A DNA stretch of 64,000 bases, taken from contig CAVUBA010000007.1 in the NCBI GenBank assembly GCA_963739595.1, forward strand, positions 39,899 through 103,898, read 5' to 3'. A program made the position numbers and the translations under genes. The stretch comes from an uncultured Thermoleophilia bacterium. GTDB lineage: Bacteria > Actinomycetota > Thermoleophilia > UBA2241. The notes under the pieces were generated by a model. The model ran no database searches. It was not told the DNA's origin and saw only the letters and a program-made list of their open reading frames with translations. Shown piece after piece: positions 4,253-32,329 of this stretch (positions within the stretch are counted from its first letter, which is position 1; each line of letters starts with the position of its first letter).

Positions 4253-5686
4253 CGGCTGCTCCCTTCTGCCTCGGCGAGCACGGCCTGCAGCCGGTCGCGG
4301 ATCGTCTGCTCCAGCGCGAACGCGCGCGGCTCGTCGCGCAGCTCCTGCGTGCGCACGGCCACGCGCTCCTTGAGCGTCGTCGCGCCGGCGGCGGCCCAGC
4401 GATCGTGGGTCGCGCGGTCGAACAGCGCGCGGCGCCCACGTCTCGCGGTGGTGCTGGCGCGTGTAGCCCCGGCCCAGGTGACTGCCGCCGGGGCCGACGG
4501 CGTCGATCTCGTTGAGCGCCAGCGACTCATCGTCGACGCCGACCTCGACGAGCAGCGCGCGGGCGTAGCCCACCAGCTCGTCGCCGAGGACGATCGTGTC
4601 GTAGCTGCTCTGCAGGCCGCTCTCCAGGTAGCCGACGTCGTGCAGCAGCGTGGCGCGGCTGAGCGCGCCGAGCACCGCGGTGATGCCGGCCTCGGCGGCC
4701 CACTGCTCGTCGAACGTCTTGGCGTCGGCGACCGCCGCGTAGGCGAAGCTCGGCAGGCCGTAGAAGCGCGCCAGGTCGGTCGCGGCGGCGTTGCCGAGGA
4801 AGTGCTCGGGCGCGCCGTACACGTCGACGGCGGTGCGCATGTCGAAGGCGCCGCAGCCGACGCCGTAGACGAACGGCGCGCCGCTGCGCGTCAGCTGATG
4901 GACGACGAGCCCGCTCAGCGTCTCGGCGTTGCCGATGACGATGGTCGCGGTCATGGACGCCGGCGCCGTGGTGCCCGCGGCGGGCGCCGGCGCGTAGACG
5001 AGCGGGATGTCGAGCTCGGCGCAGGCCCGGACCTTGTCCAGCGCCTCGCCGCTGTGGATGAGCGGCGGGTTGGGCATGGCGTAGCAGCCGAAGCTCCTGG
5101 CCTCGCCGCACATGGCGGCCATGTCCTTCATGCGGCGCAGGGAGACTGCGTCGTGCGCCGTGGTCAGCAGCGGCTTGCGCGTGCCGGCGAGCATGGCGGC
5201 GAACTGGGCGAGGTCGCCGATCTCCGCCGCCACGTCGTTCGGCAGGCCCATGCTCATGACGAAGTCGAGGTTGGGCAGCTTCTCCGCGAGCGCGGCCATG
5301 CCCTCGACGTCGGCGGTCGTGCTCTGGCGGCGTTCGCCGGTGTCGGGGTCGGTGACGTAGACACAGTCCGACCCCGTGCCGAAGTAGCTCTTGCCGTCCT
5401 CGAGCTCGAGGCCGCCGAGCTCGCCGCGGCGCGCGTGGCCCTCGCCGCCGGACGCGCCGCGCTCCTTGAGCTTGAAGTGGCGCGGCGCGCTCTGCAGGGC
5501 GGCGTCCACCAGGGCGGCCGGGATGCGGGCGCGCGTCCCTTCGACGCGCGCGCCCGCCTCCGCCAGCTGCTCGCGCGCGCCGGCGTGGCGGACCTCCACG
5601 CCGGTCTCCTCGAGCAGCGCGAGCGTCGCCTCGTGGACGCGCCAGCAGGCGGCGTCGTCCCAGACGGTGAGGCGGGCGGCGGGCAT
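4249..5686 (-). CDS. MttB-superfamily corrinoid methyltransferase (non-Pyl); frameshift near 4435
   Basis: RVHEATLALLEETGV, GTTAPASMTATIVIGNAETLSG, GLPSFAYAAVADAK, LHDVGYLESG, VGPGGSHL. The C-terminus is in ORF 4249..4530. Confidence 0.9.
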
Positions 5687-5708
5687 CAGCGGGTCAGGCG
5701 GCAGGCCA

Positions 5709-7176
5709 TCAGGCCCCCGCCAGCTCCTTGTCGGCGCGCGCGACGATCGCGCGCAGCTCGTTCACCACGTCCTCCGGCAGCGGCTCGGGCTGGTAGTTCG
5801 CCAGGATGTCGTCGGCGATCTCCGTCGCCTTCTCCAGGGCGCCCTTCTTGCCCTCGCGCAGCCAGTTGTCGTAGGGGGTGCGGTCCCAGACCGTGGGGCG
5901 CCAGATCTCCTTCATGTGCTGGCGCGTGTGCTTCTCGGCGAGGTACGTGCCGTTGTGCCCGACCTTCTTGATCACGTCGAGCGCCAGCGTCTCGTCGTCG
6001 ACGACGATGCCGTCCGCGACCTTCTGGACGATGCCGTAGATCTCGGTCTCCATGACCATGTGCGGGTAGCTGAGGATCTTGGAGCCGTTCAGCAGCCCGG
6101 CGCCGTTCATCATGTCGGCGTTGGTCATCACGCTGGCGAAGGTGCTGAGCGAGTCGTCGATGGCGGCCTGCCAGTCGGGCTCCTTGGCGCCGGTGGCCAT
6201 GGTGCCCATCGCCATCGGCACGCCGTAGAAGTGCGCGAGCTGGGTGGAGGCGCCGGCGAGGAGGTAGTCCTCGGGCGAGCCGCCGGTGTAGCCGCCGGTC
6301 TTGAGGTCGATGACGCTCGGGGCGCCGGCGAAGAACGCCGGCACGCCGGGATAGGCGAGCTCGAGGAGCACGACGCCGCTGAGCGCCTCGGCGTTCTGGA
6401 CCACGAGGTTGCCGGCCAGCGTCGCCGGGCCGGTGCCGGCCGCGAGCGGCATGGGCATGAAGCCGCTGGCCAGCCCGTGCTCGGCGGCCACGAGGTTGGC
6501 CTCGAGGTTGGGGCCGTCGTGCGCCGAGCGGGTCGACGGCGCACTGCATGAAGCTGAGGATCGGGCGCTCGCGCAGCTTGTCCGTGCCGCCGGTGATGGC
6601 GGCCGCCATCTCGACGAGGTAGCGGGCGGGCTTCTCGCCGACGGTGGTCACCGTCTGGAAGTGCTTGCTGGTGTTGGTGAACACGGCCTCGGCGTCGTGC
6701 AGCGCCTTGGTCGCCGGCGGCACGTCCTGGCTGGTGACCACGGGGCCCCAGTAGTAGCTGATGCTGGGCAGCGCGTCGACGAAGCGGGCGCTGGTCGCCG
6801 CGTCGGCCTTGGTGCTCGGCCGCTTCTCGCCCGTCTTGTGGTCGAACACGAAGACGCCGGAGCCGTCGTTGCTCAGGTAGCAGTGCTTGCCGTCGATGAG
6901 CATGTCGCAGGCGGGGTCGCGGCCGGCGAGCACGTAGCTGTCGGGCACCTGCGAGACGGCCTCCATGACGACCGCGCGAGGGAGCTTGGCGACCTGCGTC
7001 GCGCGGTCGACCTCACAGCCGTTCTTCTCGAGGACGTCGAGGGCGCGCTCGCTCGGGAACCGGATGCCCACCGTCTCGAGCACGTCGAGCGTGGCCTCGT
7101 GGATGCGCTCGAGCTCGCTGGGGTTCAGCACGTCCCACCAGAGACGGGGGGCGATGGGGTTGATTCGGGAAGTCAT
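5709..7176 (-). CDS. MttB-superfamily corrinoid methyltransferase (non-Pyl); frameshift near 6525
   Basis: RIHEATLDVLETVGIRF, GTGPATLAGNLVVQNAEALSG, DLKTGGYTGGSPE, GAKEPDWQA, ETLALDVIKKVG (ORFs 5686..7176 and 5709..6491). Confidence 0.9.
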
Positions 7177-7426
7177 TGCGGCAACCTCGCAGGGGTCCGA
7201 CGACGGCAGGTCAGGGTGGAGTCGGCAGCGGGCGGGCAGTCGCGGTGTTGCTCAGAAGGAGCCCGTCCGCGGAGGCGGAGGGCTTACAGACCGCAGGAGC
7301 GGTTGATCGTGCTGATGCTGATGTTGGCTGCGTCGGGCACGGGCCGGAGTCTATCACCGGGCCCACGCGCGGCAAACCGCTGCGAGACGCCGCAGAGTGC
7401 CGCACGTGCAGCGGTTTTTGCCGCAC

Positions 7427-8841
7427 TCACGTCCCGGGCCGGCAGGCCTCGACGTCCGCGAGGATCCGGTCGAGGCCCGCCTTCACGTCGTCCGGCAGCT
7501 CGAAGGCGCGCGGCTCGGAGCGCAGCTCCGCGACCCGCGCCCGCAGGCGGTCGAGCAGCGTCTTCGACCCGTCCGCCTCCCAGGCGTCGTGGCGGGTCGT
7601 GTCGAAGAGGTCGCTCTGCCAGATCTGCCGGAAGTGCTTGCGCGTGTACGGCCGGGCCAGGTGGTTGCCGCCCGGCCCCACCGCCTTGATCTCGTCCAGC
7701 GCCAGCGCCTCGTCGTCCACGGCCAGCGGCGCCATGAACGCCTTGGCCCAGCCGAGCAGGTGGTCGCCGAAGACGATCGACTCGTAGCTGCTCTGCAGCC
7801 CGCACTCGAGGTAGCCGACGTCGTGGAGCAGCGTCCCGCGCGAGAGCTTGCCGAGGATCGCCGGTCAGCGCCGCCTCGGCGCTCCACTGCTCGTCGAGCA
7901 CCTTGCTGTCGGTGTGCGCCGCGTAGGCGAAGCTCGGCAGGTCGTACCAGCGCGCGAGGTCCGTCTGCGCCTGGTGGCCGCGGAACACGTCGGCGGACGA
8001 GTACACCTCGTTCATCGTCCGCATGTTCATCGCTCCCACCCCGACGCCCCAGACGAACGGCGCGCCCGGCCTGACGGCCTGGCTCAGCACGAGGCCGGCG
8101 AGCACCTCGGCGTTGGCCACGACGATCACGGCCGCGACGCTCGCCGGCGCCGTGCGTGCCGGCGTTGGGCGCCGGCGCCCAGATCACCGGGATGCCGAGC
8201 TCGGCGCAGGCGATCACCTTGCTGGCGCCGTCCTCGTCGAAGAGCAGCGGCGGCACCGGCATCGCGTAGATGCCGAAGCTGTCGGCCTCGCCGGCCAGCG
8301 CCGCCATCTCCTTCATCTTGGCGAGGATGTGGCCGTCGCGCGGCGCGACCAGCAGCGGCTTGCGCGTGCCGCGCATCATGGCGTCGACCTGGACCAGGTC
8401 GTCGATGGCCTGCGGCGCGTCTTCCGGCAGGCCCATGCTCATCACGAAGTCGATGTTGGGCAGCTTCTCGCAAAGCGCGGCCATGCCCTCGACGTCGGCG
8501 CGGCGGACGCGGCGACGCTCGCGCGTGTCGGGGTCGCACACGTAGAGGACGTCGGAGCCGGTGCCGCAGTAGGTGTGCGCGGCGTCGAGGACGAGCGGCT
8601 CGGTGTCGCCGCCGCGCGGCTTGATCGTCCAGTCGCGCGGCGCACTCCTGATGGCGGCCTCCACGAGCTCGGCCGGGATGCGCACCCGCGTGCCGTCGAC
8701 CTGTGCTCCGGCCTTCGCGAAGATCTCGGCGGCCGGCGCGTACCGCACCTCGATGCCGGTCTCGGCGAGCACGTCGAGCGTCGCTTCGTGGACGCGCCGG
8801 CAGGCGTCGTCGTCCCAGATCGTCAGGCGAGCTGCGTTCAT
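7427..8841 (-). CDS. MttB-superfamily corrinoid methyltransferase (non-Pyl); frameshifts near 8155 and 7860; paralogue of 4249-5686
   Basis: MNAARLTIWDD..RVHEATLDVLAETG, NAEVLAG, DLPSFAYAAHTDSK, VGPGGNHL. GGAGG RBS upstream. Confidence 0.9.
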
Positions 8842-11991: not shown

Positions 11992-12089
11992 GCAGCTCCT
12001 GCGCTACGATTCATCGTCTCTCAGGACCTCCCCCTAGCGGAGGCGCGTTCCGGTAGCATCCGGACAGCCGCGGACCAGACAGGAGGGGC

Positions 12090-12335
12090 TCATGATCGCA
12101 CGTTCGGTAGCGGAGACCTGGAGCGCGCGCCGTCCTCCTCGACGAGCCCCTGCTTGCTCCCGAAGTAGTAGGCGACGAGGGCCCGGTACTCGCCGGATTC
12201 CTCTTCGACCGCCTGCAGCGTGAGCTTCGAGTAGCCCCTCTCCGAGAGGATCCGCTTGGCCGCCGCGAGGATGCGCATGGCGGTCGCCGACTCGGTGATG
12301 TCCCTGCCTTGCGCCGGCTTTGCCCGCACCGCCAT
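12090..12335 (-). pseudogene. TetR-family regulator, HTH domain only (truncated)
   Basis: RILAAAKRILSERGYSKLTLQAVEEESG..ALVAYYFGSKQGL after a GAGGAGG RBS. There is no room for a ligand-binding domain before the next gene. Confidence 0.7.
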
Positions 12336-12466
12336 CTCAAGCCTCCTCGTAGACGACGACAGGTCTTGCGTCCGTGGTTTGTTTGGTCGTACAGTAAACT
12401 CACAGTCCGCCAAATGCAAGGGCCGTCCGATGTCTTCGGCCGTGGCCCGTCCGCAAAGGAGCAGCG

Positions 12467-13571: not shown

Positions 13572-14159
13572 TCAGATCCAGAAGCCTGGCGGCTCCGCGA
13601 GGTCCGGATGCTCACGCTCGAACGCGAGCGCGTCGTCGAGCGTGCGCACCCAGTCGTAGTAGACGCCCTTGCAGTGGACGAGGTCGACGCCGAGGTCACG
13701 CAGGCGGGCGAGGCCGCAGGCCTGCGCGCCCGCCGGCGAGTAGACGGCGTCGACGGCCACGACGACGCGGTAGCCGGCCTCCATGAGACCGACGGCCGAG
13801 TGCGTCACGCACACGTCGGTCTCGAACCCGCAGAGGACGGCCGTCCGGCGGCCGGTCGCCTCGATCGCCGCCATGATCTCCGGGCAGGCGGCGAGGTCGA
13901 AGACCGGCTTCTTGAACACCGGCGCGCGCCGGCCGACGGCCAGCAGCACCCCCACGGCCGTCGGCCCGTTCCGCTCCGGGCTCTCCTCGGTGAGCACGGC
14001 GGGCACGTCCAGGGCCATCGCCGTGCCGGCCAGCCAGGCGGCGCGCGCGGCCGCCCTGCTCACTTCTTCCGCGTCGCTCTTGTCGAGCCTGTCGCTCCAG
14101 AACTTGGGCTGCAGATCGATGACGATGAGGATGGAGTCGTCGCGTTCGAGCAGCGGCAT
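13572..14159 (-). CDS. Isochorismatase/cysteine hydrolase family protein
   Basis: LIVIDLQ (Asp), FKKPVF (Lys), GFETDVCV (Cys) catalytic triad pattern. Confidence 0.85.
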   Translation of the reverse strand: MPLLERDDSILIVIDLQPKFWSDRLDKSDAEEVSRAAARAAWLAGTAMALDVPAVLTEESPERNGPTAVGVLLAVGRRAPVFKKPVFDLAACPEIMAAIEATGRRTAVLCGFETDVCVTHSAVGLMEAGYRVVVAVDAVYSPAGAQACGLARLRDLGVDLVHCKGVYYDWVRTLDDALAFEREHPDLAEPPGFWI

Positions 14160-14470
14160 GGTCGCCTCCACGGCGTTGACGGATCCAGGTGCGCCCGGCC
14201 ATTCCGGACCGCATCTCACGGCACGATACCATGGTCAACTTGCACGAACTTCGCACGCCGACGCGCACCGCGCGTGACGGATTGCTCGGCGAAGTTGCGC
14301 GCGCCCGGCCGCGACGCTTTACTCGCGCGCGCCCCGCCCATACGCTCGGGCTCTGCGAGCGGCGGGGCGCTCCTGCGACCACGCCCGTGGGGCCGGGCGA
14401 CCTGACACCGTTCCGCCCCACCCGTCGTCTCGCCGGCCGACACACATCGCCAGCCAGCGGAGGTGCTCCA

Positions 14471-15939
14471 GTGAAGCGAAACCTGCACGCCGGGCGGCCC
14501 AGCTCGGGCGGGCTCAGCCTGAACGTGTTCACGGAGGCCGAGCTCAACGACATCCATCTCGGCTCGCTCGAGGTCCTCGAGCGGACCGGGATGTGGGTCG
14601 AGGCCGACGATGCGCTGGACATCTTCAGCGACGGCGGCTGCGTCGTGGACCGCGAGACGCGCATGGTGCGCATCCCGCCGTACCTGGTCGAGGATGCGAT
14701 CCGCTCGGCGCCGCCCAAGAGCTTCCTCTGCGGCCGCGACCCGGAGCAGGACATCGTCCTCGAGTCCGGCCGCGTCTACGTCTCCAACTTCGACGAGGGC
14801 ATCATGATCGTCGATCCGCGCACCGGCGAGTACCGGCACCCCGTGCTGCAGGACGTGCACGAGGCGGCGCGCCTGGTCGACGCCCTCAGCGACATCGACA
14901 CCTACGAGTCGGCGGTGCACCCGGGCGACGTCCCGGAGGCGACCGCCAGTCTCCACAAGTGGGAAGCGGCCATCCACAACACCGGCAAGCCCGTCGGCAC
15001 CGAGGCCACCAGCGCCTACGACTGCCGGAAGCTCATCGAGATGGCCACGGTCGTCGCGGGCGGCGAGGACGAGTTCCGCCGCCGCCCGCTCATCGGCTTC
15101 GGGGTCTGCCCGGTGAGCCCGCTCAAGCTGCCGCGCGACGCCACCGAGGTCATCATCGAGTCGGCGCGCGCCTGGTGTCCCGACACGATCCTCAGCATGG
15201 CCATGTCCGGCGGATCGTCGCCGGTGACGCTCGCCGGCACGCTGGTGCTGCACAACGCCGAGGTGCTCTCCGGCATCGTGCTCGCCCAGCTGGTCGAGCG
15301 CGGCTGCCCGGTCACCTACGGCTCGTCGACGACGGCGATGGACCTGAAGCTGGCGGCGGCGTGCGTGGGCTCGCCGGAGCTCGCCCTCTTCTCCGCCGCC
15401 TGCGCCCAGATCGCCCGCCACTACCTGCTGCCGAGCTTCGTGGCGGGGTTGTAGGCAGACTCCAAGCTCGGTGACGCGCAGACCGGTCACGAGAAGACCC
15501 TCACCGGACTCCTTCCTGCGTTGGCAGGCGCCAACCAGATCTACGGGGCGGGGATGATCGAATCGGGCGTCACCTTCGACCTTGGCCAGCTGGTCATGGA
15601 CAACGAGATCGCGCGCATGATCAAGTTCGCCGTCGGCGGCATCGCCGTCACCGACGAGACGATGGCGTCGACGACATCGCCAAGGTCGGCGCGTTCGGCG
15701 ACTTCCTCTCGCTGGACGCCACGCTCAAGCACATGCGCGAGCTGAGCCAGCCGGAGGTCCTCGACCGCCGCGTGCGCGAGGACTGGGAGAGCAGGGGCGC
15801 GACCGACCTCGCCACGCGGACGCGCGCCCGGGCGCTGGAGCTAGTAGAGTCCCACCAGCCCCTGCCCATCGACCCGGACGTGGCCGAGCAGGTGCGCCGC
15901 ATCATCGAAGCTGCCGACCGTGAGAAGGGCGTGGCATGA
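14471..15939 (+). CDS. mttB: Pyrrolysine-containing trimethylamine:corrinoid methyltransferase (in-frame TAG 15452-15454; indel near 15668)
   Basis: GTG start after [96 protein letters not shown]. Conserved MttB sequence continues in frame past the TAG to the TGA that overlaps the corrinoid gene start. Confidence 0.93.
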
Positions 15940-16580
15940 ACGAACCGCTCAAGCAAGCCATCATCGACGGCAACGCCGACACGGCGCTGGCCCTGACGCA
16001 GGCCCTGCTGGCCAGCGGCGCCTCCGCCCGCGAGATCCTCGACGAGGCCCTGCTCCCCGGCATGGAGGTGGTCGGCGTGCGCATGCGCGAGGGCGACTGC
16101 TTCATCCCCGAGGTGCTGCTCAGCGCGCGTCATGCAGAGCTGCCTCGACCTGCTGCGCCGCACATGGCCGCCGGCGACGAGGCCGGCGGCGGCACCGTCG
16201 TCATCGGCACCGTCGAGGGCGACCTGCACGACATCGGCAAGAACCTGGTCGGCATGCTGCTCCAGGGCGCCGGCTTCAGCGTGGTCAACCTCGGCACCGG
16301 GGTCTCGGCCGCCGACTTCGTCGCCGCGGTCAGGGAGCACGCGCCGGCGATCATCGGCATGAGCGCCCTGCTCACGACCACCCTGCCGCACATGAGCGAG
16401 ACCATCGCCGCGCTCAAGGACGCGGGCCTGCGCGACTCGGTCAAGGTGATGGTCGGCGGCGCCCCGGTCACGGCCGCCTACGCCGACGAGATCGGCGCCG
16501 ACGGCTACGGCGCCAACGCCGGCATGGCGGTGGAGCGGGCGAAGGAGCTGACGGAACTAGTCTGGGCCTGCGGGTCCTGA
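15936..16580 (+). CDS. mttC: Methyltransferase cognate corrinoid protein (MttC/MtbC family)
   Basis: GTVEGDLHDIGKNLV (DxHxxG cobalamin motif), SALLTTT, VMVGGAPVT, GADGY. ATGA overlap with mttB; short compensating frameshift near 16130-16160. Confidence 0.92.
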   Translation: MNEPLKQAIIDGNADTALALTQALLASGASAREILDEALLPGMEVVGVRMREGDCFIPEVLLSARHAELPRPAAPHMAAGDEAGGGTVVIGTVEGDLHDIGKNLVGMLLQGAGFSVVNLGTGVSAADFVAAVREHAPAIIGMSALLTTTLPHMSETIAALKDAGLRDSVKVMVGGAPVTAAYADEIGADGYGANAGMAVERAKELTELVWACGS

Positions 16581-16594
16581 AGGGGGAGGGCCTC

Positions 16595-17956
16595 ATGACC
16601 GCGACCATCGACCGCGAGCGGCTCGCGGCGCTCAAGGCGCGCGAGGACGACGACTTCGTCGCGCGCCATCCCCGCTCCCGCGCGCTCTTCGAGCGGGCGC
16701 AGGCGCACCTGCTCGACGGCGTCCCCATGAACTGGATGACGCGCTGGTCGAGCCCGTTCCCGCCCTACGTCGCCGAAGCGCACGGCGCCCGGTTCACCTG
16801 CGTCGACGGGCACGAGTACGTCGACTTCTGCCTGGGTGACACCGGCGCGATGACCGGCCACTCTCCCGAGGGGCCGGCCTCCGCCATCGCCGCCCAGGCC
16901 GCCCGGGGCATCACCACGATGCTGCCGACCGAAGACTCGCTCTGGGTGGCCGACGAGCTCTCCCGCCGCTTCGGCCTGCAGTACTGGCAGCTGGCGCTCA
17001 CGGCGACCGACGCCAACCGCTTCGCCATCCGGCTGGCCCGCCACGTCACCCGCCGGCCCAAGATCCTCGTCTACAACTACTGCTACCACGGCTCGGTGGA
17101 CGAGACGATCATCACCATCAACGACGGCGTGCCGGGCCCCAAGCCGGGCAACGCCGGCCCGCCGGTCGACCCCACCGTCACGACCAAGGTGATCGAGTGG
17201 AACGACCTCGAGGCGCTGGAGCGGGCGCTCGAGCCCGGCGACGTGGCCTGCGTCCTCGCCGAGCCCGCCCTCACCAACATCGGCATCATCCTGCCGGACG
17301 ACGGCTACCACGACGCGCTCCGCCGCCTGACGCGCGAGACCGGCACGCTGCTCATCATCGACGAGACGCACACGATCTGCGCGGGTGTGGGGGGCTGCAC
17401 CCGCGCCTGGGGACTCGAGCCCGACATGGTGACCCTCGGCAAGCCGATCGGCAGCGGAGTGCCCGCGGCCGTGTACGGCTTCGGCCAGGCGCTCGCCGAC
17501 CGCATCCACCGCGACTGGGACTACCACGCCGCGGACGAGTGCGGCATCGGCGGCACCCTGGCGGGCAACGCTCTCAGCGTCGCGGCAGTCCGAGCGACGC
17601 TGGGCGAAGTCCTCACGGACGAGGCCTACGAGCGGATGATCCCGCTCGCCGGCCGCTGGGCCGACGGCGTGCAGGGCGTCATCGACGAGTTCGCCCTGCC
17701 GTGGGTGGTCAAGCGCCTCGGCTGCCGGGCGGAGTACTGGCCGCGGCCCGTGCCGCCGCACAACGGCGGCGAGGCGGCCGCGGCCGAGGACGAGCAGCTC
17801 GACCGCTTCCTGCACCTCTTCATGCTGAACCGCGGCATCCTGATGACGCCGTTCCACAACATGGCGCTCATGGCGCCGCAGACGACCGCGGCGGACGTCG
17901 ACCGGCACACCGCGGTGCTGCGCGAGGCTGCGCAGGCGCTCGTCACACAGGCCTAG
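16595..17956 (+). CDS. Class III PLP aminotransferase (glutamate-1-semialdehyde aminomutase-like)
   Basis: DVDG-like CVDGHEYVDFCLGDTG, YHGSVDE, EPALTN, IIDETHT, TLGKPIGSG (PLP Lys), GGTLAGN. GGAGG RBS. Confidence 0.88.
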   Translation: MTATIDRERLAALKAREDDDFVARHPRSRALFERAQAHLLDGVPMNWMTRWSSPFPPYVAEAHGARFTCVDGHEYVDFCLGDTGAMTGHSPEGPASAIAAQAARGITTMLPTEDSLWVADELSRRFGLQYWQLALTATDANRFAIRLARHVTRRPKILVYNYCYHGSVDETIITINDGVPGPKPGNAGPPVDPTVTTKVIEWNDLEALERALEPGDVACVLAEPALTNIGIILPDDGYHDALRRLTRETGTLLIIDETHTICAGVGGCTRAWGLEPDMVTLGKPIGSGVPAAVYGFGQALADRIHRDWDYHAADECGIGGTLAGNALSVAAVRATLGEVLTDEAYERMIPLAGRWADGVQGVIDEFALPWVVKRLGCRAEYWPRPVPPHNGGEAAAAEDEQLDRFLHLFMLNRGILMTPFHNMALMAPQTTAADVDRHTAVLREAAQALVTQA

Positions 17957-18522
17957 TCGGCGCGCAGCGGCTGCCAGCCGCTCGGGTCCGCCCCCGAGTC
18001 GGTGTGGGAGCGAGCGCGGCCCTCGAGCCCGGCGCCGGGCCCCGCCCGCGAGACGTCGACGGCGATCGTCCCATGCAGCGAGCCGTTGAAATGGTAGGGC
18101 GGCAGGGCGTAGTTGCGGCCGGTCGCGTCGTCGACGAGGTCGAGCCTGCTCTCGCGGAACTTGTCGTCGGCCGTGAGCTGGACCGTCACCGTCGCGCCGG
18201 CGGCCACCCTGGGAACGACGGCGTGCCCCGCCCCGTCGACCTGGTCGAGGCTCAGGCTGTCGAGCGGCGTCGATCCGCCGTTGTGGATGGTCACCGTCAC
18301 CTGCAATGGCGGCGTGAAGCAGCCCTGAGCGCGGAGCACGAGGTAGGTCGCGAGCGCCGCCACAACGATCAGGACGGCGACGAGGACCCAGAGGCGCCGC
18401 CTCCGGCGGCGCCGGCTCAGCCTTTCGGTCACCGGTGCGCTCCCGTCCTCATGCGCCGTCGCTCGACTCGAAGCGGATGCGCCAGCTCGCCATCGACGCT
18501 CGATCTCGGCTCGCACGCTCAC
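17953..18522 (-). CDS. Hypothetical membrane-anchored protein
   Basis: Arg-rich stretch, one transmembrane helix, then a beta-rich domain. Overlaps the stop of the upstream mttB-like gene. Confidence 0.55.
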   Translation of the reverse strand: MSVRAEIERRWRAGASASSRATAHEDGSAPVTERLSRRRRRRRLWVLVAVLIVVAALATYLVLRAQGCFTPPLQVTVTIHNGGSTPLDSLSLDQVDGAGHAVVPRVAAGATVTVQLTADDKFRESRLDLVDDATGRNYALPPYHFNGSLHGTIAVDVSRAGPGAGLEGRARSHTDSGADPSGWQPLRAD

Positions 18523-20005
18523 GGTCGCTCAGGCCCCGCGAGCTCGGCGTCGGCGGCCGCGACGAGCCGCCGGAGCTCGGCGCTGCACGTCTGCGGCAGC
18601 GGGTCGGGCGCGTGGGACGCGAGGATCTCTCGCGCCCGTTCCTCCGCGTTCTCCAGCGCACCGCTTCTTGCCGCGCCGCCAGCCAGGCGTCGTAGGACGT
18701 CCGGTCCCAGACACCCGGGCGCCAGATCTCGCCCATGTGCGCCCGCGTGTGCTTCTCGGCCAGGTACGTGCCGTTCGGCCCGACCTTGCGGATGACGTCG
18801 AGCGCCAGCGTCTCGTCGTTCACTTCGATGCCGCCGGCCGTCTTCTGCACGATGCCGTAGACCTCGGCCTCCATCAGCAGATGCGCGTAGCTCAGGGTCT
18901 TCGAGCCGTCGAGCAGGCCGCAGCCGCTCATCATCTCGGCGCCGGCCGAGACGCTGGCCAGCGTCGAGAGCGCGTCGTCCACGGCTGCCTGCCAGCCCGG
19001 CTCCTTGGCCCCGCTCGCCATGGTGCCCATGTTCATGGCGAAGCCGAAGTGGTGGGCGAGCTGCGTGGCGGCCGCGGCCAGGACGTAGTCCTCGGGGCTG
19101 CCGCCGGTGTAGCCGCCGGTCTTGAGGTCCATCACGGAGGGCGCGCCGGCCAGAAACACCGGCGCGCCCGGATGCGCCAGCTGCAGCAGGACGATCCCCG
19201 CGAGCACGGCCGCCATGTTGACCACGAGGTTGCCGGCCATGGTCGCCGGCGCGGACGCACAGGCGAGCGTGAGCGAGAGGAAGCCGACCGGAACGCCGGC
19301 CTCCGCGCAGACGAGCGCCGCCTCGAGGCTCACGGCCTCGTTGCTCAGCGGATCGATCGGGCAGGCGATGAGGCTCATGATGGGCCGGCGCCGGAGCTCG
19401 TCGGCCCCGCCGGCCACCACCCGCGCCATCTCGACCGCGCGTCGCGCCATCGCCTCGCCCACCACGTCGACCGCCTGGAAGTGCTTGCTCGTGTTCGCGA
19501 AGATCGCCTCGAGCTCGTGCAGCGGCCGGGTGGCCAGGGGTACGTCCTCCGCGGTCACCACGGGACCCCAGTAGAAGCTGACCTGCGGGACGGCGTCGAC
19601 GAAGCGGGCGGAGTCGGCGACGTCCGCCTTGGTGCTGGGGCGCAGCTCGCCGGTGTCCGGATCGAGAACGCGCACGCCGCACCCGTCGTTGCTGAGGTGG
19701 CAGGCAGCTCCGTCGAGGACGATGTCGCAGCGGGGGTCGCGGGCGGCGAGGAGCGGCGCCTTCGGCGCCGCCTGCAGCGCCGCCCGCACGACGGACTCGG
19801 GCAGGCGCGCGACCTGCGACGCGCGATCGACGCGGCAGCCGCCGCGTTCCAGCGCGTCGAGCGCGCGCTCCAGCGGGAAGCGCACGCCGACCTCGGCGAG
19901 CGTCTGGAGGATGCCCGCCTCCAGCCGCTCCAGGTCGGTCGCGCTCAGCACGTCCCAGCGCAGGCGCGGCCTGATCGGATCGATACGCAGGGCTGCGTCC
20001 GCCAT
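18519..20005 (-). CDS. MttB-superfamily corrinoid methyltransferase (non-Pyl); frameshift near 18670; paralogue of 5709-7176
   Basis: HLSNDGCG, FYWGPVVT, NTSKHFQ, APATMAGNLVV, DLKTGGYTGGSPED, GAKEPGWQA, VGPNGTYLAEKHT. The C-terminus is in ORF 18519..19682. Confidence 0.9.
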
Positions 20006-20225: not shown

Positions 20226-21233
20226 TTACAGGTTCTCGTCGCCCGGAGGCAGGGGCGTCTCGCCCTGGGGCCGCTCCGAGAGAGGGATCTCGGGTAGGGC
20301 CGTGTCCTGGAAGTTGCCCTCGTCGAGCGCCGCGCCGACCGCGCCCTGCGGCGGACCGTCGGCGGCGTCCGGGTCCGGCAGTTCCTGGTCGACCTCGACG
20401 ATGCCGAGCTCCTTGGCGTGCTCGGGCTCCTTCTCCGGCAGGATGTGCCGCAGGAAGCGCTTGGTGCGGTCGTCCTTGGGATGGAAGAAGACCTCGCTCG
20501 GCGGGCCCTGCTCGATGAAGTAGCCGTCGTCCATGTACACGACGCGGTCGGCCACGTCACGGCTGAAGCCCATCTCGTGGCTGACGACGATCATGGTCAT
20601 GCCGCCCTCGGCGAGCTCCTTCATGACCTTGAGCACCTCGCCGATGAGCTCGGGGTCGAGGGCGCTGGTCGGCTCGTCGAAGAGCATCAGCACCGGGTCC
20701 ATCGCCATGGCGCGGGCGATGGCGACGCGCTGCTTCTGGCCGCCGGAGAGCTGGCTGGGGAAGAAGTCCATGCGCTCGGCCAGGCCGACCTTGGTGAGCA
20801 GCTCGTGCGCCTTGCGGATGGCTTCTTCCTTCTTCACGCCCTTCACCAGGATCGGACCCTCGGTCACGTTCTCGGTCGCGTCCTTGTGCGGGAAGAGGTT
20901 GAACTCCTGGAAGACCATGCCGCACTTCATGCGGATCTCGTGCACGTCCTTCTTGAAGCCGCCGCCGTGGCTGCCGCAGGTGACGTGCACGTCCCCCACT
21001 CTGATCTCCCCGACGGTGGGATCCTCGAGGAAGTTCAAGCAGCGCAGGAACGTGCTCTTGCCTGAGCCGGACGGCCCGATGAGCACCAGCACCTCACCCT
21101 TGTAGACTTCGAGGTCGATGCCCTTGAGCACGTGGTTCTTGCCGAAGTACTTCTGCAGGCCCTCGACCTTGACGACGAGCTCGCGGCCCTTCTCGTCGGT
21201 GACCGTCTCGTGTGCGTACGTCTGTGTGCCCAT
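20226..21233 (-). CDS. Polar amino-acid ABC transporter ATP-binding protein (GlnQ-like)
   Basis: [38 protein letters not shown]; acidic C-terminal tail. Confidence 0.93.
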
Positions 21234-21234
21234 C

Positions 21235-22524
21235 CTACTTCGCCCTCCCCTTCTCCTTCTCGCGGGCCTTGTCGCGCGCCATGCGCGTCTCGAGCTTGGC
21301 CTGCCAGAAGCTGAAGAAGATCGTCAGGGCCCAGTAGAACGCGGCCGCGACGATCAGTGTGGACATGAAGCTGAAGGTCGCGGCGCCGGCGAGCTGGGAG
21401 CGGCGCAGCAACTCCTCGACGGTGATGACCGACACCAGCGAGGTGTCCTTGATCAGGGCGATGAAGTCGTTGCCCACCGCGGGGATGACGATCTTGAGCG
21501 CCTGCGGCAAGATGATGCGCCGCTGCGTCTGCCAGCCGCTGAGGCCGATGGCCCAGGCCGCTTCGTTCTGGCCCTTGGGCACCGCCTGGATGCCGGCGCG
21601 GAACACTTCGGTGAGGTAGGCGCCGTAGTTGAGCGACAGCGCCGCGACGCCGGACCAGAACGCCGGCGGGTTGAGCGTGTTCGGCAGGCCGAAGGCCCTG
21701 ATGATCTCCGGGGTCACCTGGTAGATGAAGATGATCTGCAGCAGAAGCGGCGTCCCTCGGAAGAGAGACGTGTAGAACGTCGCGACCCAGTACGGGATGC
21801 GACCGATGACCATGCGCCACATGTAGCCCCAGCTCTGGTACCGGTCCCACGCCTGCTTGAAGGTCATCTTCTTGGAGAGCCGGCCCAGCGAGCCGAACAG
21901 GGCAAGGATGCTGGCGAAGAGGATCGAGATGACGGTGAGCTCGACGGTGACGATGGCGCCCCTGGCGATGTACTTCCACCAGTTCTTGATCACGCTCCAC
22001 TTGACCAACTGGCCGCCGGCCTGACCCTGGGAGTCGTACTTCCAGGTCTTCTCGACGGAGACGCCCTTGGTCGTGACCATCACGACCTTGAAGTCGTACT
22101 TGCCCGCGGCGTAGGTGTTCGACAGCGAGAAGTGCAGCGTCGGCGTCGCCGGCGAGAGGTACTGGACGACGGCTGGGCCGGCCAGCTTCTGGAGAGCGCC
22201 GTTGATGAACACCTGGCACTTGGCGACGTCGATCCCGGCGTTCGGCAAGGGCTTGCCGTTGGGACCGATGTCCGAGCCGTTCGGCGCGAAGTTGACCTCG
22301 ACGACGTCGCCGTTCCACAGCTTGCCGTTACCGGAGGTGATCACAGCGTTCGGATCGGGGATCACGCCGACGGGGATGGGCGTGCCCTCGGGCGCCGTCG
22401 CGGCGGCGGCCGACGGCGACGCCGCAGGCGAGGCCGCCGACGCGACAGGCGTCAGCGCGGTCACCACCAGGACGAGCAGCGCCGCCATCAGCGCGATGCC
22501 CATAAGCCTTGACCGTGTTCGCAT
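21235..22524 (-). CDS. Polar amino-acid ABC permease with extra N-terminal exported domain
   Basis: [42 protein letters not shown], preceded by a signal peptide and a ~150-aa soluble domain. Confidence 0.88.
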
Positions 22525-22644
22525 GAGGGAGAACCTTCCTGTCATAAAGGCCGCGGCGAGAGGCCTGCCCTGCAAGCCCCTCGCCGCGGTCCGCTCATGA
22601 GACGCGAGTGATCGCGTCATCCTGACGACGCGTGGAGCAGATCG

Positions 22645-23538
22645 CTACTGCTTCACCGTCAGGTCCATGCCGTTGTACCACTGCTTGCTCATCGCGGTGA
22701 GCGAGCCGTCAGAATGCATCGTCTGGACGGTGTAGTTGAGCATGGCCAGCCAGTCGGCCTCGCCCAGCTTGAGGGCCATGGCGAGGTCCTCGTAGTAGAG
22801 CGGCTTGCCCGAGAACTCGAACGGCTGACCCGAGAGGATCGCCTGCTGGCCCGTCGGGCCGGCGGTCATCACGAAGTCGAGGTTGCCGTTGGCGAGATCC
22901 GGGAAGGCGTCGGCGTCGGTGGTGTAGGTCTTGACGATCGCCTTGGTGTTCTTCTTGAGGTAGTCGTAGTAGGTCGTCGCGGCGCCCACGCCGACCTTCT
23001 TGCCGGCGAGATCGGCGAGGCCGGTGATCTGCGGGCCGCCCTTCTTCACGAAGATCTGGCCCGAGGTGTAGTAGTACGGATCGGTGAAGGCGAGGACCTT
23101 CTGGCGCTCAGGCGTGATGGTCATCGAACCGATCGAGACGTCGTACTTGCCCTGCTGCAGGCCGGCCGGGATGGTCTCCCACGCGGGGTTCTTGAAGTCG
23201 ACTGTGAGGCCGAGGAGCTGGCCCATCTTGTTGGCGACGTCGACGTCGAAGCCGACGAGCTTGCCGGTGGCCTGGTCGACCGAGCTCTGCGGCGGGTAGT
23301 TGGCGTCGTTGGCGACGATGACCGAGCCGCGGTTGACGATCGTCTGCGGCGAGGCCCGTCGGCGCGTGGCCGAGGATCTTCGTCGCGATGTCCATCGGCG
23401 CTGGTGGCCGCGGCACTCGCGCTCGCAGCTGGAGCTCGAGCCGCTACTGCTGCTCCCGCACGCGGCGACGATGCCCGCGAGCGCGATGATCGCGATCAGG
23501 AGCACAGCTGCCAGAATGTAGGTCTTGCCCTTTCTCAT
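22645..23538 (-). CDS. Polar amino-acid ABC substrate-binding lipoprotein; compensating frameshifts near the N-terminus
   Basis: Lipobox IVAAC, NYPP, GFDVDVA, MTITPERQK..FTDPYY, SKQWY. Confidence 0.9.
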   Translation of the reverse strand: MRKGKTYILAAVLLIAIIALAGIVAACGSSSSGSSSSCERECRGHQRRWTSRRRSSATRRRASPQTIVNRGSVIVANDANYPPQSSVDQATGKLVGFDVDVANKMGQLLGLTVDFKNPAWETIPAGLQQGKYDVSIGSMTITPERQKVLAFTDPYYYTSGQIFVKKGGPQITGLADLAGKKVGVGAATTYYDYLKKNTKAIVKTYTTDADAFPDLANGNLDFVMTAGPTGQQAILSGQPFEFSGKPLYYEDLAMALKLGEADWLAMLNYTVQTMHSDGSLTAMSKQWYNGMDLTVKQ

Positions 23539-23670
23539 GCCTCCGTCCTTTCCGGCTGACTTTTCCCGACGGCCGCGATACCCACGGGCGTGGACTTCTA
23601 CGGATGGCGGCCCCCACCGCCTGTCAGGACGATCAGCGTCGCACTCCCCCGGCGCGACGTGTTGAGTTGG

Positions 23671-23699
23671 ATTTATACAGCACCGCCCCCAAAAGACAA
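23671..23699 (-). promoter_or_regulatory. Sigma70-like promoter for the amino-acid ABC operon
   Basis: Minus strand reads TTGTCT-16 nt-TATAAA, with TG before the -10, in an AT-enriched intergenic patch. Confidence 0.55.
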
Positions 23700-23779
23700 C
23701 CCTCCCGGAGGCTGGCGACGTAGGGTCTCGACCCGAGTCTGTGAGTATCTGCGCGCGCTCGCGTCGCAGGAGCGGCGGC

Positions 23780-25161
23780 TCAGTCGATCTGGGCCAGCCG
23801 CCTCAGCTCGGCGTCCACGCGCCGGATCGAGGGCGGGCGGGCGGTGCGAGGCGACCGCGGCGGCGATGCGCTCGTGGGCACGGTCGATCGCCGTCTCGCG
23901 CCCTCCGGCAGTCCAGTGACGGTGCGCCTTGTCGACGGCCAGGGAGGGGCCGGCGGCGGGCGAAGCCTGCCCGCCGGCCGAACCGCCGGCAGAAGTCAGG
24001 TCCACGCCTGCAGCGATACTGCGCGCATGTGAGAGCGCCTCGACCCCGAGCGCCATCTCCTCGTAGCTGAAGATCCGGCCGCCGGAGACCATGCCCACCC
24101 CGGTGAGCATGTCGACGCCGGCGGCGAGCGACAGGTACGTGGTGGTCGTGTCGTCCAGCGCCGACTGCCAGCTCGGCTCCTTGGCGCCGCTCGAGTTGAC
24201 GCCGCACTGCGTCGGGAGGCCGTAGAAGTGGCCGACGTCGCCGACGGCCGCGGCCATGATCGTGTCCTCGGGAGCCCCGCCGGTGAAGTCGCCGCTCTTG
24301 AGGTCCATGACGCTCGGGATGAAGCAGATGAAGACCGGCGCGCCCGGGAAGGCGGCCTGGATGGCGCACACCGAGCTCAGCGCCTCGGCGATGCCGATGA
24401 CGAGCGAGCCGGCCATCGTGATCGGCGTGGTGGAGCCGCCCATCGGCATGGTCACGAAGCCGATCGGGATGCCCGGCCTCGGCGAAGACCAGGCCGGCCT
24501 CCAGCGTCCCCTCGTCGTTGCCCAGAGGCGTGACCGTGCCGAGCAGCGCGCTGATCGGCGGCTCGGCACGGAGCTTCTCCTCCGAGCCGCTCACCGCGAG
24601 CGCCATCTGCACGGCGACCTCGGCGAGGTCCGGCTCGACGACGGTCACCGTCTGCACGTGCTTGCCGGTGTTGGCGATCGCCAGGTAGAGCTCGTGCAGT
24701 CCCCGCACCGAGACCGGCCGGTCCTGCGCGCTCACGGCCGGCCAGCAGAAGTCGACCTCGGGCAGCGCGTCGACGACGCGGCTGATGGTCGCGACGTCGT
24801 CGGCCGTGGTGCCGCGCTTCTCGCCCGTCTCGAGGTCGTAGATCTCGACGCAGCAGCCATCGGTCGTGACCAGCGAGCGCTCGCCGGTGACGATCGGCGC
24901 GCCGGCACGGGCGCCCAGCGTCAGGTGCGCCGGCGCGAGGCCGACGAGCCGGCGGACGAGCTCCGCCGGCATGGTGACGCGCACGCCGTCTGCCGTCGCG
25001 CCCTGCGCGACGAGCGCCGCGCGTGCGCGCTCGGATGGAATCGCCACGCCGACCTCGGCGAGCACCTCGAGCGCCGCGGCGTCCAGTCGCTCCAGGTCCT
25101 CCCGCGAGAGGATGGCCAGGCGCCCGGCCGAGCCGATGGTGTGGGTGAGGGTCTCCGTCAT
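23780..25161 (-). CDS. MttB-superfamily corrinoid methyltransferase (non-Pyl); frameshifts near 24475 and 23820
   Basis: LSREDLERLDAAALEVLAEVGV, NTGKHVQ, GSTTPITMAGSLV, DLKSGDFTGGAPE, GAKEPSWQS; ends ..DAELRRLAQID*. Confidence 0.87.
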
Positions 25162-29314: not shown

Positions 29315-29325
29315 GATGACATCTC

Positions 29326-32323: not shown

Positions 32324-32329
32324 CCCCTC

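What the first reader, a model, noticed from the sequence alone, without database searches (positions are those of the whole stretch)
14471..16580. Pyrrolysine-encoding mttB (in-frame UAG) plus mttC in an apparently actinobacterial genome
Seen: the ORF caller stops at TAG 15452-15454, codon 328 from the GTG start. The same frame continues [49 protein letters not shown] and, after one indel, runs to a TGA overlapping the corrinoid-protein ATG. Known: methanogen MttB carries pyrrolysine at about residue 334 in the context P.FVAG.-O-.D.K..D.Q.GHEKT, and Pyl is needed for trimethylamine activation. Bacterial Pyl use is mostly described in Firmicutes and Deltaproteobacteria. Inference: this organism decodes UAG as the 22nd amino acid for anaerobic methylamine demethylation, in a lineage where this is little described. 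Errors in this contig are mostly indels, so a chance stop at exactly this codon is unlikely.
Basis: partly seen in the sequence, partly recalled or inferred. Interest (0 to 1): 0.93.

Follow-up and report, generated by a model that had tools for sequence, protein, structure and literature searches.

The report
Pyrrolysine-type mttB in a Thermoleophilia genome
An uncultured actinobacterium of the class Thermoleophilia carries a trimethylamine-methyltransferase gene whose in-frame UAG sits exactly where methanogens insert pyrrolysine, and its genome holds the machinery to read that codon; the finding is real, but pyrrolysine genes in Actinobacteria have been reported before.

Summary
Confirmed. 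The TAG at 15452-15454 is codon 328 of an mttB starting at GTG 14471. It aligns exactly to pyrrolysine-334 of the solved Methanosarcina barkeri MttB. The TAG is present in all 33 orthologous loci from other genomes. DNA downstream of it evolves like coding sequence.

On another contig the genome (66.6% complete) holds tRNA-Pyl(CUA), pylSn, pylSc and pylBCD. It also holds two more TAG-mttB and seven TAG-mtbB genes.

The frameshift in mttB and two compensating indels in mttC are private to this assembly. rpoB is frameshifted too, so they are most likely assembly errors.

The nearest relatives are titled "uncultured Thermoleophilia bacterium". PylSc was found in 70 of 75 sampled genomes of the same family, but in only 1 of 400 genomes sampled across the phylum. 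TAG remains a common stop codon, and RF1 is present in congeners.

Novelty is moderate. PylRS genes in two Actinobacteria, and expressed Pyl-mttB in Actinobacteriota genomes, are already in print (PMC9630628, PMC10805028). One oddity: the "invariant" Gly110 is Asp here.

The parts
14471..15939 (+). mttB, a pyrrolysine-type [trimethylamine--corrinoid protein] Co-methyltransferase. Intact orthologues have 489 codons. This copy has one private 1-base deletion.
   Evidence: PDB 7xcm/7xcl MttB, E about 1e-98. TIGR02369 scores 577.5 bits against a cut-off of 525 for the first 401 residues alone. PF06253 matches both halves. Orthologues read TAG at codon 328 and stop at codon 490.
15452..15454 (+). 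In-frame TAG, the predicted pyrrolysine codon (residue 328)
   Evidence: Aligns to X334 of 7xcl_A. TAG in 33 of 33 orthologous loci and in 82 of 82 TAG-type mttB copies found in 79 of 80 loci. The codon-position divergence pattern continues downstream.
15666..15667 (+). Site of the 1-base deletion (third base of an Ala codon) that shifts the frame of the last 91 codons
   Evidence: The window is the only one of 34 aligned sequences with this gap. Contigs of runs X2 and X4 carry an extra base at 15665-15667.
15936..16580 (+). mttC, the cognate corrinoid protein (cap domain plus B12-binding domain with DLHDIG = DxHxxG). Its ATG overlaps the mttB TGA.
   Evidence: PF02607 and PF02310. TIGR02370 pyl_corrinoid at 170.9 bits, below its cut-off of 215.3; the best NCBIfam matches are MtgC/MtbC-type corrinoid proteins, all below cut-off. 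Translation.
16125..16157 (+). Stretch of mttC read out of frame because of two compensating deletions (2 bases after 16125, 1 base after 16157)
   Evidence: Orthologue alignment. The insertions relative to the window are seen in contigs of all four runs laid.
16595..17956 (+). Class-III aminotransferase (PRK07046-type transaminase), 14 nt after mttC; a conserved neighbour
   Evidence: PF00202. NF005453 at 671.6 bits against a cut-off of 425. Found downstream in 18 of 33 orthologous loci; 5 of the other 15 loci end too early to tell.
13572..14219 (-). Isochorismatase-family hydrolase, divergent upstream neighbour
   Evidence: PF00857. Found upstream in most orthologous loci.
18449..20005 (-). 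Second MttB-superfamily gene with no in-frame stop (non-Pyl type, substrate probably a quaternary amine)
   Evidence: PF06253, E 4.6e-82. TIGR02369 at 399.7 bits, below the cut-off of 525. 36% identical to the Pyl-type copy, with no stops.
20226..23802 (-). ABC transporter (ATPase, permease, family-3 solute-binding protein) next to the non-Pyl MttB homologue
   Evidence: PF00005, PF00528, PF00497.
1..247 (-). End of a RamA/RACo-type corrinoid reductive activase gene that starts before the window (G000:C7:39411-40145)
   Evidence: PF14574, E 1.9e-79. A homologue lies 7-15 kb from the orthologous mttB in G003, G015, G022 and G023.
2864..7864 (-). Two or three further MttB-superfamily genes, fragmented in this assembly
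   Evidence: PF06253 matches in three open frames.

Best explanation
This is a functional pyrrolysine-dependent methylamine methyltransferase operon (mttB-mttC) in an uncultured, high-G+C, probably anaerobic member of the class Thermoleophilia that reads some UAG codons as pyrrolysine.

Proposed mechanism. The roles below are taken from the families named; they are inferred, not shown here.
- PylB, PylC and PylD make pyrrolysine from lysine.
- The split synthetase PylSn + PylSc charges tRNA-Pyl (anticodon CUA).
- This tRNA competes with release factor 1 at UAG 328 of mttB, giving a 489-residue MttB with Pyl in the active site beside the conserved Tyr and Met.
- The pyrroline ring binds and activates trimethylamine.
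- The methyl group passes to Co(I) of the corrinoid on MttC, which is kept active by a RamA-type activase encoded 14 kb upstream.
- From there it goes, by a methyltransferase not identified here, to tetrahydrofolate and the Wood-Ljungdahl pathway that congeners encode.
- Dimethylamine would be handled by the seven TAG-containing mtbB genes elsewhere in the genome.

The frameshifts in mttB and mttC are errors of this assembly, not gene decay.
For: Shown:
- The TAG aligns to Pyl334 of solved M. barkeri MttB, with Tyr364 and Met249 conserved.
- The curated equivalog TIGR02369 is passed.
- TAG is present in 33 of 33 orthologous loci. In 30 intact orthologues the mean pairwise difference at codon positions 1/2/3 is 0.079/0.052/0.275 upstream of the TAG and 0.100/0.067/0.241 downstream. 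The part after the TAG is therefore under the same protein-level constraint.
- GC3 phase continues across the TAG.
- The machinery lies in the same genome on contig C14: pylSc 198.7 bits (cut-off 178), pylSn 126.5 (51), pylB 438.5 (348), pylC 305.4 (248), pylD 198.7 (150), and a 73-nt tRNA-Pyl(CUA) with a 6-bp anticodon stem and short variable loop.
- This is not a binning artefact. In G013 and G007, pylSc and a TAG-mttB lie on one contig.
- TAG-mttB and pylS occur together. All 24 congeners searched have TAG-mttB and 48 of 53 have pylSc. The two near-complete congeners without pylSc (G048, G049) have only MttB homologues without a stop.
- The genome holds 3 TAG-mttB and 7 TAG-mtbB genes.
- RamA-type activase was found in 13 of 13 genus genomes and CdhC (acetyl-CoA synthase) in 10 of 12 congeners.
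- The indels are private to the window and rpoB is frameshifted too.
Against: - There is no direct evidence of translation. No proteomics is available, no RNA run held more than 14% of the sampled words, and none was laid.
- The raw reads of this assembly were not available.
- In this assembly mttB, mttC, pylSc and pylC all carry frameshifts, which by itself would also fit decay.
- Gly110, reported as 100% conserved in 66 Pyl-MttB sequences (PMC9842639, passages read), is Asp in all 34 sequences of this orthologue group. The substrate may therefore not be trimethylamine.
- CdhC and RF1 were not found in this 66.6%-complete genome.
- The methylcorrinoid:THF methyltransferase was not identified. 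There is one weak URO-D match on C35, and none beside the clusters looked at.
- TAG ends about 21% of long high-GC3 open frames. How unwanted read-through is limited is unknown.
Confidence: 0.9

Rival explanations
1. Same Pyl-decoded enzyme, but this orthologue group is not a trimethylamine enzyme. With Asp in place of the active-site Gly110 and a conserved class-III aminotransferase downstream, it demethylates another methylated amine.
For: - NFDEGI occurs in 34 of 34 sequences of the group.
- Paralogues in the same genome have Ser (C31) or Gly (C17) at this column.
- Among 82 TAG-mttB copies the column reads DE 48, SE 19, AE 5, GE 3, CE 1 and 6 unmatched. The loci were picked by likeness to the query, so DE is over-represented.
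- The aminotransferase follows mttB(-mttC) in 18 of 33 orthologous loci, and in some directly after mttB.
- Up to a dozen mttB matches per congener suggest subfunctionalisation.
Against: - The protein passes NCBI's equivalog model for the trimethylamine enzyme.
- The role of Gly110 is played by its main-chain carbonyl (PMC9842639), so a side chain may be tolerated.
- Bacterial homologues such as that of Ca. Formimonas warabiya already differ at Thr111.
- Gene neighbourhood alone is weak evidence.
Confidence: 0.2
2. The methylamine and pyrrolysine genes of this particular strain are decaying pseudogenes. The frameshifts in mttB, mttC, pylSc and pylC are real.
For: Frameshifts are seen in four genes of the pathway in this assembly, and three of the seven mtbB genes are in pieces.
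Against: - rpoB, an essential gene, is also split between two frames, and so is agmatine deiminase. Indels are therefore genome-wide.
- All the indels looked at are single or double G/C bases, and none is shared with any of 33 orthologous loci or with contigs from four metagenome runs.
- Two deletions in mttC restore the frame after 11 codons, as expected of random errors in an otherwise constrained gene.
Confidence: 0.05
3. The TAG is a true stop. The gene makes a 327-residue truncated protein, or two separate products, and pyrrolysine is not inserted here.
For: TAG is a common stop in this genome, ending about 21% of long coding-like frames, and RF1 is present in 14 of 14 congeners searched. 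Some termination at this codon is therefore expected.
Against: - There is no start codon context after the TAG.
- The downstream 161 codons keep frame, the third-position divergence pattern and 87% mean amino-acid identity across 30 orthologues.
- They also carry the catalytic Tyr.
- The TAG is invariant while neighbouring codons vary synonymously.
- The full Pyl machinery co-occurs with TAG-mttB.
Confidence: 0.02
4. UAG is reassigned genome-wide (all TAG = Pyl), as recently described for some archaea.
For: A Pyl system is present. RF1 was not found in this incomplete genome.
Against: - TAG ends 196 of 951 long high-GC3 frames in G000. It ends 36-41% of them in 400 kb of the Pyl-positive congener G007, no fewer than in the pylS-less congener G048 (18-21%).
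- RF1 is over its cut-off in 14 of 14 congeners.
- A crude screen for TAGs with coding signal on both sides gave 26 candidates. Only the methyltransferase genes among them looked like read-through.
Confidence: 0.01

Closest known systems
Methanosarcina barkeri MttB-MttC (PDB 7XCL/7XCM/7XCN; Li et al. 2023, PMC9842639)
   Same: Same fold family, aligned over residues 2-399 (E about 1e-98). UAG sits at the Pyl334 column, Tyr364 and Met249 are conserved, and the adjacent corrinoid protein has the DxHxxG motif.
   Different: The host is bacterial with about 70% G+C. Gly110-Thr111 is Asp-Glu. The methyl acceptor downstream is presumably tetrahydrofolate rather than coenzyme M (inferred).
Bacterial pyrrolysine systems of Firmicutes and Deltaproteobacteria (split PylSn + PylSc; survey in Guo et al. 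2022, PMC9630628)
   Same: pylSn and pylSc are separate genes; pylBCD and pylT(CUA) are present; use is in methylamine methyltransferases; TAG is kept as a stop codon.
   Different: - Host phylum: that survey found only two Actinobacteria among 81 bacterial genomes.
- The genes here are loosely arranged over 7.5 kb. pylB-C-D-T lie on one strand and pylSn further on, with a Germane/Gmad2 gene and a radical-SAM gene between them. pylSc is on the other strand.
- The nearest MttB outside the class among the 80 loci is 56-57% identical (Ca. Formimonas warabiya, a Coriobacteriaceae MAG).
Actinobacteriota MAGs of a thawing permafrost mire that express Pyl-encoding mttB and mtbB (Ellenbogen et al. 2023, PMC10805028)
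   Same: Same phylum, same gene types and same kind of habitat. MAGs titled fen_672, bog_752 and palsa_647 are among the relatives found here, at 67-72% identity. The paper names the genera Bog-752 and RBG-16-64-13 among the most active methylotrophs.
   Different: In the passages read, that paper infers Pyl from truncation at the amber codon and does not mention pylS/pylT (0 occurrences of 'pylS') or Thermoleophilia (0 occurrences). Its supplements could not be seen, so whether the same genus is covered is unknown.
Non-pyrrolysine MttB superfamily (MtgB glycine betaine methyltransferase, PDB 2QNE/9YCE)
   Same: Same superfamily. The window holds such a gene at 18449-20005 and others at 2864-7864.
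   Different: Those genes have no in-frame UAG, score below the TIGR02369 cut-off (399.7 against 525) and are only 36% identical to the Pyl-type copy.

Membership tests
Pyl-dependent trimethylamine methyltransferase MttB (TIGR02369 / PF06253) | Sequence match above the curated equivalog cut-off | tested here: met
   577.5 bits against 525 with only the first 401 residues. PF06253, E 3.3e-72, with the C-terminal piece at 2.2e-11.
Pyl-dependent trimethylamine methyltransferase MttB (TIGR02369 / PF06253) | In-frame UAG at the pyrrolysine column (Pyl334 of M. barkeri) | tested here: met
   Codon 328 aligns to X334 of 7xcl_A. TAG in 33 of 33 orthologous loci.
Pyl-dependent trimethylamine methyltransferase MttB (TIGR02369 / PF06253) | Active-site Tyr364 and Met249 | tested here: met
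   GANQIYGA and LSMAMS are conserved. The role of these residues is taken from PMC9842639.
Pyl-dependent trimethylamine methyltransferase MttB (TIGR02369 / PF06253) | Gly110(-Thr111), stated to be 100% conserved in 66 Pyl-MttB sequences | tested here: not met
   Asp-Glu in the window and in all 33 orthologous loci. Other paralogues in the clade have Ser, Ala, Gly or Cys.
Pyl-dependent trimethylamine methyltransferase MttB (TIGR02369 / PF06253) | Adjacent cognate corrinoid protein with His-on DxHxxG motif | tested here: met
   mttC 15936-16580 has PF02607 + PF02310 and the motif DLHDIG. mttC is found after mttB in 24 of 33 orthologous loci.
Pyl-dependent trimethylamine methyltransferase MttB (TIGR02369 / PF06253) | Trimethylamine-dependent methylation of the corrinoid protein | not testable with these tools
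   Needs an enzyme assay.
Pyrrolysine-decoding organism (pylTSBCD trait) | tRNA-Pyl with CUA anticodon and its unusual shape | tested here: met
   ARAGORN finds tRNA-Pyl(cta) at C14 c[33408,33480]. It has one base between the acceptor and D stems, a 6-bp anticodon stem and a short variable loop. There is no match to Rfam families at E<=0.01. That these are the hallmarks of tRNA-Pyl is recalled.
Pyrrolysine-decoding organism (pylTSBCD trait) | Pyrrolysyl-tRNA synthetase (PylSc, with PylSn) | tested here: met
   TIGR02367 at 198.7 bits (cut-off 178.15), in two frames. TIGR03912 at 126.5 bits (cut-off 51.15).
Pyrrolysine-decoding organism (pylTSBCD trait) | Biosynthesis genes pylB, pylC, pylD | tested here: met
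   438.5 bits (cut-off 348.2), 305.4 (248.3) and 198.7 (150.05), adjacent on C14.
Pyrrolysine-decoding organism (pylTSBCD trait) | Pyrrolysine residue detected in the protein | not testable with these tools
   Needs mass spectrometry.
Genome-wide UAG = Pyl code (archaeal 'Pyl code') | TAG no longer used as a stop | tested here: not met
   TAG ends about 21% of long high-GC3 frames in G000. RF1 is present in 14 of 14 congeners.

The most novel reading that the evidence does not exclude
A whole family of uncultured soil and wetland Thermoleophilia (PylSc in 70 of 75 sampled genomes) has made pyrrolysine a core trait and has multiplied Pyl-methyltransferases into paralogue groups that differ at the active-site Gly110 position (Asp, Ser, Ala, Gly). 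The window's Asp-type group, coupled to a conserved class-III aminotransferase, would then be a pyrrolysine enzyme for a substrate other than trimethylamine. That would be the first new substrate class for genetically encoded pyrrolysine since the three methylamines.
Probability: 0.15. Interest if true: 0.75.

Novelty: new member of a known kind. Interest (0 to 1): 0.5.

Why it matters
Pyrrolysine use by bacteria is documented mainly for Firmicutes and Deltaproteobacteria. Here it is shown with sequence-level controls to be near-universal in one family of high-G+C Thermoleophilia that occurs in sediment, wetland, peat, river and soil metagenomes.

- Ecology: these bacteria would compete with methylotrophic methanogens for methylamines, and so bear on methane budgets of wetlands.
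- Annotation: standard gene callers split every one of these genes at the TAG, so their methylamine metabolism is invisible in automatic annotation.
- Genetic-code biology: a 70% G+C genome keeps TAG as a frequent stop and keeps RF1, yet carries ten or more UAG-Pyl genes. This makes it a good case for asking how read-through is controlled.

Tried and rejected
- **Raw-read check.** No public run holds more than 36% of the sampled words, so only contigs of related strains could be laid.
- **PYLIS-like structure after the TAG.** The 119 nt from the TAG fold no better than shuffles (z = +1.09, 174 of 200 shuffles as good).
- **Promoter and terminator scan of 14100-18700.** Nothing found.
- **Rfam on the pylT region.** No match at E<=0.01. 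ARAGORN's call stands alone.
- **Other Pyl proteins.** A crude screen for TAGs flanked by coding signal gave 26 candidates. Apart from mtbB and mttB they look like adjacent genes in one frame. The screen missed the window's own gene, so it is not sensitive.
- **mtmB.** The MtmB-family match on C5 has no in-frame TAG and scores low (106.8 + 98.7 bits), so it is not counted as a Pyl gene.
- **Methylcorrinoid:THF methyltransferase.** Only one weak URO-D match, on C35. None was among the ten neighbours of the C31 and C17 clusters scanned. Pterin-binding families were not searched.
- **Not found in G000 (66.6% complete).** CdhC and prfA. This is not evidence of absence.
- **TAG avoidance.** None is seen in Pyl-positive against pylS-less congeners. 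This rests on a crude stop-to-stop gene call over 400 kb of each genome.
- **Origin by transfer.** No tree with outgroups was built, so no donor is claimed.
- **Literature.** 'pyrrolysine' + 'Thermoleophilia' gave 1 paper, seen as a listing only: a soil survey. Searches with Actinobacteria/-ota/-mycetota gave the two relevant papers cited. 'Thermoleophilia' with Wood-Ljungdahl and trimethylamine terms gave nothing on this topic. Supplements were closed.
- **Earlier findings of this scan.** They were not open to the session.
Full report
**1. The observation**

The window is G000:C7:39899-103898, from a draft genome of 2.31 Mb in 39 contigs. The genome is 66.6% complete, 0.6% contaminated and about 71% G+C.

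- An open frame starts at GTG 14471, behind a GGAGG, and meets TAG at 15452-15454, which is codon 328.
- Read through, the same frame continues [15 protein letters not shown]...QLVMDNEI.
- At 15666/15667 one base is missing. The next frame then carries the rest of the protein to TGA 15937-15939, which overlaps the ATG (15936) of a 214-residue corrinoid protein ending at 16580.
- A frame plot shows third-position G+C of 0.82-0.94 in unchanged phase across the TAG and a phase change near 15670.

**2. Is the TAG the pyrrolysine codon?**

The first 401 residues match the solved Methanosarcina barkeri trimethylamine methyltransferase (7xcm/7xcl, E about 1e-98). Codon 328 falls on the X at position 334 of 7xcl_A, in the context PSYVAGS-X-SDAKVPDDQAGHEKT. 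The N-terminal part alone passes NCBI's equivalog model TIGR02369 (577.5 bits, cut-off 525).

I took 33 orthologous loci from other genomes (77-98% amino-acid identity).

- All 33 have TAG at this column, while the flanking Ala and Gly codons vary synonymously.
- Thirty of them are intact: 489 codons, TAG at 328, true stop at 490 or 491. The three left out were L048 (cut by a contig end) and L058 and L105 (frameshifted).
- In these 30, the mean pairwise difference at codon positions 1/2/3 is 0.079/0.052/0.275 before the TAG and 0.100/0.067/0.241 after it. Amino-acid identity is 89% before and 87% after.

The part after the TAG is therefore translated in that frame.

**3. The decoding machinery**

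All of it lies on contig C14, and every gene below is over its curated cut-off.

| Gene | Position on C14 | Strand |
|---|---|---|
| pylSc | 29154-29880 (two frames) | + |
| pylSn | 32028-32288 | - |
| tRNA-Pyl(CUA) | 33408-33480 | - |
| pylD | 33572-34354 | - |
| pylC | 34426-35587 | - |
| pylB | 35634-36629 | - |

The tRNA has one base between the acceptor and D stems, a 6-bp anticodon stem and a short variable loop. That these are the hallmarks of tRNA-Pyl is recalled, not tested. It is the only CUA tRNA among the 28 found. Unrelated genes (radical SAM, Germane/Gmad2) are interspersed in the cluster.

Binning error is excluded by congeners in which pylSc and a TAG-mttB share one contig: G013 contig C3 and G007 contig C1.

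**4. The frameshifts**

- The window is the only one of 34 aligned sequences that lacks the base at 15666/15667.
- In mttC it alone lacks CC after 16125 and C after 16157, which puts 11 codons out of frame.
- Contigs from four metagenome runs that hold related strains carry the extra bases at all three sites: runs X2 and X4 at the first, and all four runs at the other two.
- rpoB on C34 is also split between two frames, and so is agmatine deiminase in the window.

The indels are therefore best read as assembly errors at short G/C runs, not as gene decay. The same contigs list no change at 15452-15454, although 236 lower-ranked differences were not displayed. No run holds more than 36% of the sampled words, so the assembly's own reads were not seen.

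**5. Who is it, and how widespread is the trait?**

The closest loci, up to 98% identical, come from records titled "uncultured Thermoleophilia bacterium". Some are titled Actinomycetota or Actinomycetes bacterium, including fen_672, bog_752 and palsa_647. The nearest hits outside this group among the 80 loci kept are Ca. Formimonas warabiya (56%) and a Coriobacteriaceae MAG (57%).

| Sample searched | Feature | Found |
|---|---|---|
| Same-genus species | At least one TAG-mttB, often several (up to 12 matches) | 24 of 24 |
| Genomes of other families in the class | TAG-mttB | 1 of 16 |
| Congeners | PylSc | 48 of 53 |
| Same family, class sample | PylSc | 70 of 75 |
| A second family, class sample | PylSc | 9 of 53 |
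| The other ten families sampled | PylSc | 0 of 272 |
| Even sample of the phylum (which drew only one congener) | PylSc | 1 of 400 |

Two near-complete small congeners without pylSc (G048, G049) have only MttB homologues without a stop. That is a useful internal control.

**6. The rest of the pathway**

- G000 holds two more TAG-mttB genes (C31, C17) and seven mtbB genes, each with one TAG; three of the mtbB genes are in pieces.
- An MtmB-family gene on C5 has no TAG.
- A RamA/RACo-type activase gene ends at window positions 1-247, and it is syntenic with this mttB in several congeners.
- Acetyl-CoA synthase (CdhC) was found in 10 of 12 congeners but not in G000.
- The methylcorrinoid:tetrahydrofolate methyltransferase was not identified.

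The picture, inferred from the families, is an anaerobic methylotroph that feeds methyl groups from tri- and dimethylamine into the Wood-Ljungdahl pathway.

**7. UAG as stop and sense**

TAG ends 196 of 951 long high-GC3 frames in G000. It ends 36-41% of them in 400 kb of the Pyl-positive G007, and 18-21% in the pylS-less G048. The gene call is crude. RF1 is over its cut-off in 14 of 14 congeners, but was not found in G000. No special RNA fold follows the TAG.

UAG is thus ambiguous, as in other Pyl-using bacteria, and not reassigned genome-wide.

**8. What departs from the textbook**

Li et al. 2023 (PMC9842639, passages read) state that Gly110 and Tyr364 are 100% conserved in 66 Pyl-MttB sequences.

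- Tyr364 and Met249 are kept here, but the Gly110-Thr111 column reads Asp-Glu in the window and in all 33 orthologues.
- The two paralogues in G000 have Ser and Gly at this position.
- Among 82 TAG-mttB copies in 79 of the 80 loci the column reads DE 48, SE 19, AE 5, GE 3, CE 1, with 6 not matched. The sample is biased toward the query's group.
- A PRK07046-type class-III aminotransferase follows mttB(-mttC) in 18 of 33 orthologous loci. Five of the other 15 loci end too early to tell.

This leaves room for a different substrate in this orthologue group, but it is no more than a lead.

**9. Comparison with what is known**

- Guo et al. 2022 (PMC9630628, passage read) found PylRS genes in 81 bacterial genomes. 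[quoted passage not shown]
- Ellenbogen et al. 2023 (PMC10805028, passages read) report Actinobacteriota MAGs in a permafrost mire that express Pyl-encoding mttB and mtbB, judged by truncation at the amber codon. The passages do not mention pylS or pylT or Thermoleophilia.
- No paper in the held library links pyrrolysine with Thermoleophilia in substance.

The finding is thus a well-supported new member of a known kind.

**10. Verdict**

- Observation: confirmed.
- Interpretation: supported.
- Confidence that this is a Pyl-decoded MttB-type methyltransferase gene in a Pyl-decoding Thermoleophilia: 0.9.
- Confidence that trimethylamine is the substrate of this particular orthologue group: about 0.7.
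- Interest: 0.5.

Noticed in passing
window 30845-40798: Chromosomal origin region: dnaA, dnaN, recF, gyrB and gyrA in the usual order. The Pyl-type mttB therefore lies about 15 kb from dnaA.
   Followed up: partly
window 43092-47018 (-): A single stop-to-stop frame of 1308 codons carries three enzyme domains in a row: class I/II aminotransferase, GCV_T aminomethyltransferase and SHMT. It may be a real fusion, or neighbouring genes merged by an assembly indel. All three are folate or one-carbon enzymes.
   Followed up: no
window 1357-2532 (-) and 2864-7864 (-): A lysine-2,3-aminomutase-like radical SAM gene (TIGR03820 at 513 bits, just under the cut-off of 525.4) lies beside two or three more MttB-superfamily genes and the RamA-type activase. 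The first 24 kb of the window is an island of corrinoid methyltransferase genes.
   Followed up: partly
window 10975-13540: A putrescine/ornithine carbamoyltransferase-type gene (-) and an agmatine deiminase gene (+, frameshifted near 13200) lie upstream of mttB. These are polyamine catabolism genes next to the methylamine operon.
   Followed up: no
G000 contig C37 c[59926,60023]: A tRNA-Sec(UCA) is present, so the organism may use both selenocysteine and pyrrolysine. Selenoprotein genes and selA/selB were not searched.
   Followed up: no
G000 contig C34 5939-9302 (-): rpoB is split between two frames near 8300-8400. This is evidence that the assembly carries indel errors throughout, so any frameshift in this genome needs checking before it is called a pseudogene.
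   Followed up: partly
G000 contig C31 60001-84295 and C17 33402-35973: Second and third methylamine islands. On C31, mttB(TAG)-mttC lies beside a divergent TetR-family regulator, with four mtbB(TAG) genes nearby. On C17, mttB(TAG) lies directly beside mtbB(TAG).
   Followed up: partly
G048 and G049 (same genus, 1.7-1.8 Mb, 98% complete, 1-2 contigs): Two much smaller congeners lack pylSc and have only MttB homologues without a stop. This could be loss of the Pyl trait together with genome reduction, or a misplaced genus boundary.
   Followed up: partly
congeners G001, G002, G003, G021, G022 (and G007 at about 73 kb): prfA (RF1) lies about 43 kb from pylSc on the same contig in five congeners. 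This is probably plain synteny.
   Followed up: no
orthologous loci L034, L040, L041, L044, L052, L065: In some species mttC after this mttB orthologue is shortened or missing, and the aminotransferase gene follows almost directly. The corrinoid partner may be supplied from another locus there.
   Followed up: no
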